From: an uncultured Acidobacteriota bacterium
GTDB taxonomy: Bacteria; Acidobacteriota; Vicinamibacteria; Fen-336
NCBI GenBank assembly: GCA_963720545.1
Contig: OY970399.1
Coordinates: 3,104,001 to 3,168,000 of the forward strand
Length of the DNA: 64,000 bases
Direction: 5' to 3'
A program made the position numbers and the translations under genes. The notes below the pieces were generated by a model. It worked only from the letters and a program-made list of their open reading frames with translations. It searched no databases and was not told where the DNA came from. Below, piece by piece: positions 17,711 through 57,021 of this stretch; position 1 is the first letter of the stretch; each line of letters starts with the position of its first letter.

Positions 17711-17930
17711 CTATCGACGGATGGGCCGTCTCGCCCCCGTCCCATCCGTCGATCTTCTTTTGTCCGTTGCCAGGCGCTTGCCCGCTATCGACGGATTGGC
17801 CGGCCGTCCCTGCCCAATCCGTCGATTTCCTTTTTCCGTTCCCAGGCGCTTGCGACAGGGTTCGTTTCGTTTCGTTTATTCCCTGGGCGCTTGCGTCAAC
17901 GACCTGTTGCCACTGTGTCCGGACACAGTG
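17711..17930 (+). repeat. REP-like modular repeat, copy 1: two 13-bp hairpins + GGCGCTTGC linkers + terminal palindrome CACTGTGTCCGGACACAGTG
   Basis: Hairpins at 17713-17753 and 17787-17826; palindrome at 17911-17930. The same modules recur at 55107-55353 and 55905-56185. Confidence 0.9.
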
Positions 17931-54762: not shown

Positions 54763-55107
54763 ATGAAGCTCGGCATCACCGATAACGTGGACTGCGCGCA
54801 CTTCCTCCCCGGCCACCCCAAGTGCGGGCGGCTGCATGGCCATACGTACAAAGTGGAGGTGGTGATCGAGGCCCCGGCGCCCGCCGGCGGCATGATCGTC
54901 GACTTCGCCGAGCTGAAGGCGAAGACGCGGCAGGTGCTGGAGCAGTACGACCACCGCAACTGGAACGACACGCTCGAGTATCCGTCGGTCGAGAACATCT
55001 GTTCGCTGTTGTGCGCAGGCCTGCGCGCAAAGATCGATTTCCCCTTCGTCTTGCGCGTCTACGAAGGCGCCCTGAAGTGGGCCGAGATGGATAGCCGGGA
55101 AGCCTAA
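54763..55107 (+). CDS. queD: 6-carboxytetrahydropterin synthase (QueD/PTPS family)
   Basis: AHFLPGHPKCGRLHGHTY, DHRNWND and PSVENI. Confidence 0.85.
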   Translation: MKLGITDNVDCAHFLPGHPKCGRLHGHTYKVEVVIEAPAPAGGMIVDFAELKAKTRQVLEQYDHRNWNDTLEYPSVENICSLLCAGLRAKIDFPFVLRVYEGALKWAEMDSREA

Positions 55108-55353
55108 TCGACGAATTGGCCGTCTCGTCCCCGCCCAATTCGTCGATTTCCGTTGCCCGCTATCGACGGATTGGCTGGCCGTCCCGATCCAATCCGTCGA
55201 TTTCCTTTGTTCCGTTTCCCTGGCGCTTGCGACAACGTTCGTTGGCTGTCCCCCGAGCGCTTGCGACAACGTTCGTTCCTGCTTCGTTCAGGCGCTTGCG
55301 TCAGCGGTTTTTTGCGCTGCTTCTATTTCTGATTAACTGTGTCCGGACACAGT
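55107..55353 (+). repeat. REP-like modular repeat, copy 2 (left arm), ending in palindrome ACTGTGTCCGGACACAGT
   Basis: Hairpins at 55107-55147 and 55162-55201, GCGCTTGCGACAACGTTCGTT twice, and the palindrome at 55336-55353. Confidence 0.9.
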
Positions 55354-55357
55354 AACA

Positions 55358-55894
55358 ATGCATTCACGGAGCAAGCGCGCAGCGGCCGGGGCCATCTTCG
55401 TCGTGGTTGGCGGCCTGTTTCTCCTTTGGCGGGCATGCTGCGCCGGTGTTGCGTGTCGAACGGCGCTTGTGGTCCCCGACCTGCCGCCATATCGGGAAGA
55501 ACTCTCAGCAGCACGATCTGGCAGGCGCATCCACGATGCGAGCGTGCCGCACGCCGTCCCCGCCTATGGGGGCGAGGGCGACGACGTTGAATTCTCGCCC
55601 GACGGAATGTTCGCAGCGGTTTCATTGAGGGCGAGGCTGTACGCCGCCGGGCGCGAGTCGACCCACACGGTCAACGTGTGGGATCGACGCAAAGGCACAC
55701 GCACCGACGTCGTTGCTATTGGCGAAGCTGATCCGGGTTCCGGAGCCTCGCACGACTACAAGTGGTCGCGAGATTCTCGCGCGCTCTTGATCTACGGAAC
55801 AGGAGTGCTGTGGCCGGAATCGGATTGGCGGGAGCTGTGCCTCATTTACTTGCCGGAGACGAGTCAACTGGACCGAATCGAGCCGTGCCGCTGA
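55358..55894 (+). CDS. Orphan hypothetical protein (N-terminal TM, TolB/WD40-like FSPDG and WSRDS segments); putative cassette cargo
   Basis: 178-aa ORF that fills the space between two identical palindromes and visibly has more A/T-ending codons than its neighbours. Confidence 0.6.
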   Translation: MHSRSKRAAAGAIFVVVGGLFLLWRACCAGVACRTALVVPDLPPYREELSAARSGRRIHDASVPHAVPAYGGEGDDVEFSPDGMFAAVSLRARLYAAGRESTHTVNVWDRRKGTRTDVVAIGEADPGSGASHDYKWSRDSRALLIYGTGVLWPESDWRELCLIYLPETSQLDRIEPCR

Positions 55895-55904
55895 GGGTCG
55901 ATTC

Positions 55905-56185
55905 ACTGTGTCCGGACACAGTAGCAACGACCGTTGTCAACAACGAACGTTGTCGCAAGCGCCTGGGAAACGGACAAAAGGAAATCGACGGATTGGGCGG
56001 GGACAGCCAGCCAATTCGTCGATAGCGTAACGACCGTTGTCGCAAGCGCCTGGGAAACGGCCAAAAGGAAATCGACGAATTGGGCGGGGACGAGACAGCC
56101 AATTCGTCGATAGCTGGCAAGCGCCTGGGAAACGGACAAAAGGAAATCGACGGATTGGACGGGGACAGCCAGCCAATCCGTCGAT
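55905..56185 (-). repeat. REP-like modular repeat, copy 3 (right arm, inverted)
   Basis: Palindrome at 55905-55922; hairpins at 55984-56023, 56071-56111 and 56146-56185, each with the linker GCAAGCGCCTGGGAAACGG(A/C)CAAAAGGAA. Confidence 0.9.
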
Positions 56186-56187
56186 GA

Positions 56188-57021
56188 TTACGGTTCAGCC
56201 GCTTCCTTGGCGATGAGTTGCGCAAGCGCGGCCATCAGGCGGCGGGTGAGCGGGCCGGGGGCGCCGGTGCCGAGCGTGACGGCGTCGATGGCGACGACCG
56301 GCAGGATTTCGCGCGACACGCTGGTGATGAAGGCTTCGCTCAAGTGCTTCAGGTCGGCGAGGGACACCGGGTGTTCATCGATCGGCAGCACCGTCGCGGC
56401 GACTTCGAGGACGAGGCTGCGGGTGACTCCCTTGAGGACGCGGTCGCCTTCGGTGCGCAGCGTGCCATCGAGGATCGCGAAGAAGTTGCTGCTCAGGCCT
56501 TCCAGGATCTGGCCGTCGCGGTCCGCCATCAAGCCTTCGTGGATGTCCTTGCCCAGCGACTCTCGTGCCGCGTGTGCCGCCGACAGGAAGCGCGTGTCCT
56601 TCGCGTGCGGGTCGTCGCGGTGCAGTTGCACCGTGGCGCAGCGGACTCCCTGCTCATAGAGGGCGGCGTCGAGAGGGGTAAACGGTTCGATGCCGATGAA
56701 GAAACGCTTCGGCGACGGAGAGAAGGTGAGGCGCAGGCGCGACTCGCCGTCGCGGCCGGCCAGCAGATCGGCCAGCGCTCGACGCACGGCCGAGTGGTCG
56801 AGGGTCGCGGGCTGTCCCAGGACCCAGACCGACTCCTCCAGACGGCGCAGGTGCTGGTCGAGGCGCAGGATTCGCGATCCGTCGTAGGTGCGGAAGGTCG
56901 TGTAGGCGCCGGGGGGAAGGAGTTTCGCCGCGGCGTCGACCGAGCACGTTCCGAGGTTGGCCTCGAGCAGTCCAGTCGCGGTCAGCTCGAATGTGCCGCT
57001 TTGTGAATTTCCCTTATACAT
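56188..57021 (-). CDS. Class IV PLP aminotransferase (branched-chain/D-Ala/ADC-lyase family)
   Basis: AYTTFRTY..LDQHLRRL, ILEGLSSNFF, LKGVTR and EAFITSVSR. Confidence 0.85.
   Translation of the reverse strand: MYKGNSQSGTFELTATGLLEANLGTCSVDAAAKLLPPGAYTTFRTYDGSRILRLDQHLRRLEESVWVLGQPATLDHSAVRRALADLLAGRDGESRLRLTFSPSPKRFFIGIEPFTPLDAALYEQGVRCATVQLHRDDPHAKDTRFLSAAHAARESLGKDIHEGLMADRDGQILEGLSSNFFAILDGTLRTEGDRVLKGVTRSLVLEVAATVLPIDEHPVSLADLKHLSEAFITSVSREILPVVAIDAVTLGTGAPGPLTRRLMAALAQLIAKEAAEP

What the first reader, a model, noticed from the sequence alone, without database searches (positions are those of the whole stretch)
55107..56185. Candidate new gene-cassette system: an orphan ORF tightly bracketed by identical 18-bp palindromes within inverted hairpin arrays
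Seen: queD stop, hairpin array, ACTGTGTCCGGACACAGT (55336-55353), 4 nt, ATG..TGA (55358-55894), 10 nt, ACTGTGTCCGGACACAGT (55905-55922), inverted hairpin array, then the stop of the convergent aminotransferase. The palindrome is invariant in all three copies in the window, while the arrays vary in unit number and sequence. The ORF has no SD and looks compositionally foreign. Known: tight gene-plus-site packaging typifies integron cassettes and dif modules, but this site resembles neither attC (no GTTRRRY/RYYYAAC pair) nor dif. Inference: the palindrome is a recombinase or nuclease target that lets single genes be captured, excised or, being symmetric, inverted within REP-like arrays. The enzyme would be encoded in trans, as none is present here.
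Basis: partly seen in the sequence, partly recalled or inferred. Interest (0 to 1): 0.88.

Follow-up and report, generated by a model that had tools for sequence, protein, structure and literature searches.

The report
Nuclease-site palindromes bracket a captured gene
A rare foreign-looking gene sits between two copies of a short palindrome that is most likely the docking site of a selfish DNA-cutting protein encoded elsewhere in the genome, and a related strain appears to have one palindrome and no gene here, which suggests these sites can occasionally take in or lose genes.

Summary
The 18-bp palindrome is one of about 70 mostly solo sites in this genome (family ACT-NNN-TCCGGA-NNN-AGT), from which REP-like modules point outward. 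It is tied to a nuclease family with a ParB/KorB-like DNA-binding domain, a dimerising middle domain and an HNH domain. All 4 copies here carry a family palindrome upstream, inside or at the end. The link recurs across the class and in Elusimicrobia, where three paralogue-specific palindromes tested are dispersed mainly in the genome carrying that paralogue. The 1.08-kb segment is an insertion: queD and the aminotransferase abut in 12 of 14 relatives that have both. One 173-nt contig from another study shows an empty allele with one palindrome. One more cargo-like locus exists here. However, pairs are rare, no cassette arrays, circles, inversions, RAYT or linked recombinase were found, and cutting is untested. 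Best reading: a non-autonomous cargo form of an HNH-palindrome element, not an integron-like system. The scan noted the HNH-palindrome link before on other DNA; cargo plus empty allele is added here.

The parts
54763..55107 (+). queD (6-pyruvoyl tetrahydropterin synthase family), left host gene
   Evidence: Pfam PF01242 E 5e-23
55107..55335 (-). Left repeat arm: two REP-like hairpins (55107-55147, 55162-55201), linker repeats (55218-55312) and a 40-nt stretch unique in the genome (55296-55335); modules point away from the palindrome
55336..55353 (.). Left 18-bp palindrome, core of a 28-nt imperfect direct repeat (55331-55358); presumed binding site of the ParB-HTH/HNH protein
55358..55894 (+). 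Cargo ORF, 178 aa, intact; N-terminal hydrophobic helix followed by beta strands; small unnamed family
   Evidence: homologues 32-45% identical with a colinear frame; no Pfam or NCBIfam hit; low-confidence model, pLDDT 41
55905..55922 (.). Right 18-bp palindrome, within the second copy of the 28-nt repeat (55900-55927)
55926..56185 (+). Right repeat arm: 13-mer at 55926-55938 repeated at 56029-56041, linker repeats and three hairpins (55984-56023, 56071-56111, 56146-56185)
55357..56028 (.). Stretch skipped in the empty-allele contig (672 nt: ORF, one palindrome and one array unit)
   Evidence: run X3 record 10 (173 nt, depth 2.4)
56188..57021 (-). Class IV aminotransferase, convergent right host gene
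   Evidence: Pfam PF01063 E 6e-36
17714..17929 (.). Third window copy: hairpin array followed by a solo palindrome (17912-17929), with unique sequence on the other side

Best explanation
The palindrome is the cognate site of a family of selfish nucleases built of a ParB/KorB-like helix-turn-helix domain, a variable linker, a ribbon-helix-helix-like dimerisation domain and an HNH domain (distantly DUF222/REP13E12-related), encoded at four other loci. SHOWN: the genes carry the palindrome upstream, in the linker or downstream; free copies are scattered mainly in genomes with the matching paralogue; repeat modules radiate from the palindrome and are shuffled at it; this locus is a two-armed element split at its central palindrome, with the site duplicated around a foreign ORF; an unsplit form is seen in one contig. 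INFERRED: a dimer binds the palindrome through its two HTH domains and the HNH domain nicks or cuts nearby. Host repair then joins palindrome-bearing ends, which moves the nuclease gene (itself often palindrome-gene-palindrome), leaves solo sites, and occasionally installs another gene where the nuclease gene would be. The locus is thus a non-autonomous cargo derivative, a by-product rather than a dedicated cassette system. My odds: site recognised by this protein family about 0.85; its cutting drove dispersal and this insertion about 0.55.
For: 4 of 4 own nuclease genes carry a family palindrome. 9 of 10 exact hits in three relatives lie inside the same gene family, and the tenth is at a contig end. 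23 of 30 class loci have a site in the linker, 24 of 26 sites in one frame. All 35 class genomes with 3 or more sites are among the 57 with a strong family hit, versus 0 of 94 others, maximum 2. 8 of 12 Elusimicrobia paralogue loci have an 18-bp ACT-type palindrome within 100 nt upstream, 6 different sequences. Their free copies are genome-matched: 9/0/0/0/0, 4/1/0/0/0 and 6/0/0/0/0 across five genomes. Fold: the top three matches of residues 25-135 are ParB-parS (Z 7.9, rmsd 2.9, 95 aligned), KorB (Z 7.4, 7.2) and then Spo0J (6.6); residues 367-442 match HNH nucleases (Pfam HNH). The middle domain is predicted as a homodimer: score 0.52, best control 0.00, pLDDT at least 66, contact agreement at least 86%; the mark was reached by 20 of 30 solved pairs and 1 of 23 single chains, and the pass may be from memory of RHH dimers. 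Modules point outward in 57 of 66 cases. Site pairs share one flank only in 75 of 76 cases. Empty allele. Insertion relative to relatives.
Against: Binding and cutting were not tested. The empty allele rests on one 173-nt contig at depth 2.4 from one study, and its right side is repetitive; it could also be a deletion between the 28-nt repeats. Cargo is rare: 2 cargo-like loci among 53 clusters here, and 0 orphan cargo among 10 gene-sized palindrome intervals in other genomes (9 nuclease genes, 1 ordinary aminotransferase). The genome-level co-occurrence is partly circular because many sites lie inside the genes, and kin are not independent. Z under 8 is common for helical domains (note), and Foldseek gave no hit at E 0.001 or better. 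No clean residue-to-base code was found: R75 occurs only with ACTG half-sites (8 of 8), but 12 ACTG-type proteins have another residue. Three of five labelled palindrome groups are no more clustered on the tree than shuffles. One control module ('link') is also mostly one-sided (400 of 469). One own paralogue is split in two frames.
Confidence: 0.55

Rival explanations
1. Passive capture. The palindrome is a binding site or relic of the HNH family, but the ORF entered or left by host recombination or slippage between the 28-nt repeats and the repeat arrays, with no catalytic role for the nuclease in this event.
For: Arrays differ in unit number between strains, and the empty contig also lacks one array unit. 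Cargo loci are very rare. Inverted arrays and palindromes are fragile sites (established knowledge, recalled).
Against: It does not explain why dozens of perfect, paralogue-matched palindromes spread through genomes of two phyla, nor the 4-nt and 10-nt packing, which resembles the short spacing between palindrome and nuclease start in Elusimicrobia.
Confidence: 0.25
2. Ordinary REP/BIME mosaic spread by a now-lost HUH transposase (RAYT); two independent arrays happen to flank a horizontally acquired gene.
For: The hairpins start at stop codons and favour convergent gaps (23 of 49 versus 121 of 1053). They are lineage-specific (53 copies here, at most 1 in each of 58 relatives). Y1 transposases occur in 15 of 58 relatives.
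Against: No PF01797 or NF047646 hit in this 94.8% complete genome. The palindrome occurs without these arrays in Elusimicrobia and inside HNH genes. The empty allele keeps both arms around one palindrome.
Confidence: 0.1
3. Integron-like system: an unlinked tyrosine or serine recombinase recombines the palindromes to capture, excise or invert single genes.
For: Tight packing, a duplicated site and an empty allele with one site; hybrid half-site combinations in some genomes.
Against: Only two tyrosine recombinases, far from any site, and no resolvase or IS110 hit. No arrays, circle or inversion joints. In this genome 51 of 54 exact-pattern sites are symmetric, although free crossover at the centre between the two types would give many hybrids. 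The motif tracks the HNH family.
Confidence: 0.05
4. The palindromes are selected operator or chromosome-organising sites (parS/NBS-like) for a domesticated protein, and the bracketing is incidental.
For: ParB/Noc-like fold; sites overlapping the start region of the family's own genes suggest autorepression.
Against: Sites favour convergent gaps, are spread along the whole contig, differ between related genomes and cluster with palindromes of other paralogues 21-90 nt apart. The model shows no ParB CTPase domain.
Confidence: 0.05

Closest known systems
REP/REPIN/BIME elements with RAYT (TnpA-REP) transposases
   Same: Lineage-specific intergenic hairpins in inverted arrangement, with an enzyme gene flanked by its own repeat; each RAYT is tied to one REP type (passages of PMC3390384).
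   Different: The linked enzyme is an HTH + HNH protein, not an HUH tyrosine transposase. The core is a loopless 18-bp palindrome that also lies in frame inside the gene and is shared between phyla. A protein-coding cargo sits between two cores.
REP13E12 / DUF222-HNH repeat genes of mycobacteria
   Same: Multicopy genes with a helical N-terminal region and a C-terminal HNH domain, named among repetitive elements (passage of PMC10589994); weak PF02720 hits in 6 of 97 family members.
   Different: The query protein itself has no PF02720 hit. I found no paper linking these genes to cognate palindromes, free copies or cargo in my searches.
ParB-parS, Noc-NBS, KorB-operator, SopB-sopC
   Same: HTH DNA-binding fold read out on a short palindrome by a dimer; specificity switches through few residues (abstract of PMC7383237).
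   Different: No CTPase domain in the model; a nuclease domain is fused; the genes are multicopy and carry their own site.
Integron gene cassettes (attC) and pdif modules
   Same: One promoterless, tightly packed ORF between recombination-like sites, with a filled and an empty state.
   Different: No attC or dif motifs, no integrase at the site, no arrays, and the site is fully symmetric.

Membership tests
Integron cassette | attC with RYYYAAC/GTTRRRY core sites | tested here: not met
   no such motif in either flank
Integron cassette | IntI-type tyrosine recombinase linked to an array | tested here: not met
   two PF00589 genes only, more than 0.9 Mb from the locus and tens of kb from any site; no arrays
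pdif / dif module | XerC and XerD arms around a 6-bp core | tested here: not met
   no XerD-arm-like motif within 3 mismatches in the locus (motif recalled)
REP/REPIN-RAYT system | dispersed, lineage-specific intergenic hairpins in inverted arrangement | tested here: met
REP/REPIN-RAYT system | RAYT/Y1 HUH transposase flanked by the repeat | tested here: not met
   no PF01797 or NF047646 match in the own genome, 94.8% complete; past loss cannot be excluded
REP/REPIN-RAYT system | conserved GTAG/GGAG tetranucleotide at the hairpin foot (recalled) | tested here: not met
   the commonest 6-mers before the hairpin end in GGAA (43 copies)
REP13E12 / DUF222-HNH | C-terminal HNH domain | tested here: met
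   PF01844 above cut-off in 3 of the 4 sequences scanned, the fourth being the N-terminal half of the split gene; fold matches
REP13E12 / DUF222-HNH | DUF222 (PF02720) N-terminal domain | tested here: inconclusive
   6 of 97 members at E up to 0.01, best 1.6e-4; none in the query
ParB/Noc/KorB DNA-binding proteins | ParB-type HTH DNA-binding fold | tested here: met
   top three of 48161 chains, Z 7.9/7.4/7.2 over residues 25-135 with pLDDT above 90; middling Z
ParB/Noc/KorB DNA-binding proteins | N-terminal CTPase (ParB/Srx) domain | tested here: not met
   only 24 residues precede the HTH-domain match and there is no Pfam ParB hit
ParB/Noc/KorB DNA-binding proteins | sequence-specific binding to the palindrome | not testable with these tools
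   inferred from gene-site association only
Mobile non-autonomous element | filled and empty alleles at one locus | tested here: inconclusive
   one contig supports an empty allele; direction and mechanism are unknown
Mobile non-autonomous element | same cargo unit at other sites, or an excised circle | tested here: not met
   single copy in the genome; no circle joint listed, though contigs drop rare forms

The most novel reading that the evidence does not exclude
ParB-HTH/RHH/HNH proteins are the engine of an undescribed class of mobile DNA. Each paralogue reads, cuts and writes its own perfect 18-bp palindrome into genomes, much as RAYTs do for REPs but with unrelated chemistry. It builds the repeat mosaics and captures or releases foreign genes between duplicated sites, so this locus is a caught example of gene capture by a nuclease-driven, recombinase-free cassette mechanism with a natural library of orthogonal protein-site pairs.
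Probability: 0.35. Interest if true: 0.9.

Novelty: new variant of a known kind. Interest (0 to 1): 0.74.

Why it matters
Multicopy DUF222-like HNH genes have been listed as repeats without a mechanism in the papers I could search. Here the family comes with a named target, genome-matched free copies, a concrete domain architecture and a locus seen in filled and probably empty form, so binding, cutting and mobility can each be tested directly. If the nuclease does drive the spread, this is a REP-like system with a different enzyme class that can also move genes, and it offers many natural protein-palindrome pairs (9555 family representatives at E up to 0.001).

Tried and rejected
RAYT, resolvase and IS110 searches of the own genome gave no match. 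Rfam gave four hits far below gathering scores, treated as chance. The hypothesis that palindrome-adjacent genes are foreign was rejected (p 0.18 and 0.67). Context of ORF homologues was not obtained: the metagenome scan gave one 32-residue match inside an unrelated frame with no palindrome, and 1 of 400 other phylum genomes had a weak match at a contig end with no palindrome in 2 kb. The ORF model (pLDDT 41) was not used for a fold search, and Atlas hits were under 0.9. A profile search of the nuclease family against solved structures found nothing. A synteny test for the second cargo locus failed because thyA is not beside the hydroxylase homologue in any of 21 relative loci. Four viral-contig hits had no nuclease gene nearby and were not followed. 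One search used a pattern two bases too short and is uninformative. The output was cut and was redone. A regular expression for the HNH motif matched nothing, so the catalytic residues were judged only by Pfam and by eye. A residue-to-base code gave no clean rule. Supplementary files of papers were not opened.

Full report
OBSERVATION. The anatomy is as described: queD stop, hairpin array, palindrome at 55336, 4 nt, a 178-codon ORF, 10 nt, palindrome at 55905, inverted array, aminotransferase stop. Three exact copies in the window against 0.03 expected. The repeat around the ORF extends to 28 nt at 93% identity. No attC or dif-like motif was found. The ORF is a real gene: 4 other proteins by single-sequence search and 11 by profile, 41-45% identity to the closest independent homologues over most of its length in one frame, and no family name. 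One hit, P0002, reads through into the right palindrome and array, so it is this same locus in another assembly with frameshifts. GC3 is 0.70, like the nuclease genes below (0.71-0.77) and below all 3139 called genes, with the caveat that the caller selects typical genes.

THE PALINDROME GENOME-WIDE. The 4.09-Mb contig has 69 matches to ACT-N4-CCGG-N4-AGT against 0-10 for nine control patterns; 28 GCG-type, 23 GTG-type and 7 CGT-type copies are perfect. A looser pattern gives 70 sites in 53 clusters. Most are solo and intergenic. They favour convergent gaps (23 of 49 versus 121 of 1053) and share gaps with two REP-like hairpin modules (28 of 49). Nearest modules point away from the palindrome in 57 of 66 cases, and 20 of 70 sites have modules on both sides. 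Among site pairs with one similar flank, 1 shares both and 75 share one only; controls inside other modules gave 18/27, 69/400, 4/0 and 741/251. So the palindrome marks the joint of the mosaic, although one control behaves similarly. Six of 9 CGT-type sites lie 77-78 nt from a GCG-type site. The locus in question is therefore a two-armed element opened at its centre, with the centre duplicated around the ORF.

THE LINKED PROTEIN. No RAYT, resolvase or IS110 was found, and the two tyrosine recombinases lie far from any site. Instead, four genes of one HNH nuclease family (84281+, split in two frames; 1210480+; 1269805-; 3585114 region) each carry a family palindrome upstream, in frame in the linker, or at the 3' end. 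In three relatives 9 of 10 exact hits are inside the same family. In 30 class loci, 23 have a site in the linker and 24 of 26 sites are in one frame. Over 151 class genomes, all 35 with three or more sites are among the 57 with a strong family hit, and the other 94 have at most 2. The reversed-pattern control reaches 5, and the 24 genomes with six or more sites all have the family. These counts are partly circular, kin are not independent, and they include unpublished G129 (34 of 56 without it). By my count 55 of the 75 listed sites are perfectly symmetric, with several different triplets. The exact window palindrome gave 66 stretches in the species collection: 57 Elusimicrobia, 8 Ca. Marinacidobacterales (all at the nuclease gene) and 1 other. 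In Elusimicrobia most copies are free, and 3 sit just before a nuclease start. Of 12 Elusimicrobia paralogue loci fetched (of 21 matches), 8 have an 18-bp ACT-type palindrome within 100 nt upstream, in 6 sequences. Free copies follow the paralogue: 9 in one genome and 0 in four others; 4, 1, 0, 0, 0; and 6, 0, 0, 0, 0. One 2.3-Mb genome holds 39 copies of the window's palindrome within one mismatch. Different palindromes cluster 21-90 nt apart. The three Elusimicrobia proteins with the window's palindrome form a supported clade (99/97) apart from their paralogues, but three of five groups are not clustered beyond shuffles (37 rows).

STRUCTURE. A model from 97 sequences has three confident parts. 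Residues 25-135 best match the DNA-binding domains of ParB on parS, KorB and Spo0J (Z 7.9, 7.4, 7.2, 6.6; rmsd 2.9-3.7; such Z values are common for helical domains), and residues 367-442 match HNH nucleases. Foldseek ranks ParB/Noc chains high but at E above 0.5. I took the ParB lead from earlier notes of this scan and tested it here. Residues 222-295 are predicted to form a homodimer: score 0.52, best control 0.00, pLDDT at least 66, contact agreement at least 86%; the mark was reached by 20 of 30 solved pairs and 1 of 23 single chains. The contacts 241-239, 242-238 and 243-237 plus 270-270 fit a ribbon-helix-helix (my reading), so the pass may come from likeness to solved dimers. A dimer of ParB-like domains would read a palindrome and explain why both arms change together without a hairpin being needed. 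No simple residue-to-base code emerged.

IS THE ORF MOBILE CARGO? Of 29 relative queD loci, 14 have the aminotransferase convergent; 12 have at most 85 nt between the aligned ends, one has 226 nt and one holds an unrelated gene. None has the ORF or the palindrome, and the hairpin is essentially absent from 58 relatives. The whole segment is thus a lineage-specific insertion. I laid contigs of 4 of 21 listed runs, from four studies. All four cover parts of the ORF. In run X3 one 173-nt contig (depth 2.4) aligns to 55257-55356 and then to 56029-56101. Its left part includes a 40-nt stretch unique in the genome. The joint gives palindrome + 3 nt + the same 13-mer that follows the right palindrome in the filled form, so the simplest reading is left arm, one palindrome, right arm shorter by one unit. 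X3 also holds a near-identical ORF contig and flanking-gene contigs 96-97.5% identical, so the empty form probably belongs to a sister strain. It is one short contig, its letters were not shown, and the crossover cannot be placed. No circle or inversion joint at the palindromes was listed; contigs drop rare forms. Two ORF contigs of run X1 show gaps, so some strains may carry a damaged copy.

HOW GENERAL? Neighbour clusters 400-2500 nt apart number 7 against 1.46 expected (p about 0.0006); two are nuclease genes, and five remain (p about 0.017). One of these has the same grammar: inverted modules outside, palindromes inside, and three small ORFs without a clear family between them, the last stop 3 nt from a site (2580942-2581980). 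The others bracket a DUF4440 gene with modules in between, or ordinary genes. Genes next to palindromes are not more foreign than controls. In other genomes with listed sites I counted 10 gene-sized intervals: 9 hold the nuclease gene and 1 an ordinary aminotransferase. The nuclease gene is itself bracketed on both sides in 5 of 8 loci, several fetched because they were pairs. Cargo capture therefore looks real but occasional.

MECHANISM. Shown: gene-site association, modular shuffling at the site, insertion relative to relatives, and one empty contig. Inferred: dimeric binding, nicking or cutting beside the site, and repair-mediated joining that moves palindrome-bounded units. I put 0.55 on this, 0.25 on passive host recombination, 0.10 on a lost RAYT, 0.05 on an unlinked recombinase and 0.05 on a purely regulatory role.

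COMPARISON AND NOVELTY. It works like a REP-RAYT system with a different enzyme, and like an integron cassette only in packing; it fails the defining tests of both. The protein is at most a distant DUF222/REP13E12 relative. Nine searches found no paper that ties such proteins to cognate palindromes or cargo; the library lacks most subscription journals. I read passages of PMC10589994 and PMC3390384 and the abstract and outline of PMC7383237; other papers were seen as listings only, and no supplements were opened. Earlier notes of this scan report the HNH-palindrome link on other genomes and the hairpins of this genome as REP-like. Two look-ups for cargo or empty sites returned nothing. Verdict: a new variant of a known kind, interest 0.74; if the nuclease proves to be the engine, it would be a new class.

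Noticed in passing
L179:1443-2481 (own genome 2580942-2581980): Second split element: inverted hairpin modules outside, palindromes inside, three small same-strand ORFs between them (98, 62 and about 147 aa, the last with a weak ribbon-helix-helix hit), between a phenylalanine hydroxylase-like gene (label by my reading) and thyA.
   Followed up: partly
own genome 1617350-1617445, 1765873-1765968, 2006257-2006352, 2622197-2622292, 2622562-2622657, 2934876-2934970: Six mini-elements with a GCG-type and a CGT-type palindrome 77-78 nt apart around a short hairpin.
   Followed up: partly
own genome 2005142-2006194 (-): A proC-like frame (label by my reading) runs on for about 80 codons through two palindromes and a hairpin array, so repeat insertion seems to have extended the gene.
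   Followed up: no
own genome 2621837-2623124: A 1.3-kb intergenic mosaic with eight palindromes and tandemly duplicated units of about 365 nt.
   Followed up: no
L001:1282-2669 (own genome 84281-85668): One nuclease paralogue is split into 285 and 177 aa frames and is preceded by four tandem hairpin modules; it may be a pseudogene or an assembly error.
   Followed up: partly
L045-L110 (Elusimicrobia), e.g. L052, L056, L093: Several different perfect 18-bp ACT...AGT palindromes cluster 21-90 nt apart, and some copies are extended into perfect palindromes of over 30 bp, as if written in successive events.
   Followed up: partly
L151-L161 (G076): Eleven free intergenic palindromes, several combining half-sites of two types, some with flanks that also occur beside sites in the own genome.
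   Followed up: partly
window 17714-17929: The third copy has a hairpin array on one side only and unique sequence on the other.
   Followed up: partly
L118 (G022): An unrelated gene of about 1 kb lies between queD and the aminotransferase without palindromes, so this gap has taken an insertion independently.
   Followed up: no
own genome, whole contig: Cumulative GC skew has its minimum at the start and maximum at the end of the 4.09-Mb contig instead of a turning point in the middle; not examined.
   Followed up: no
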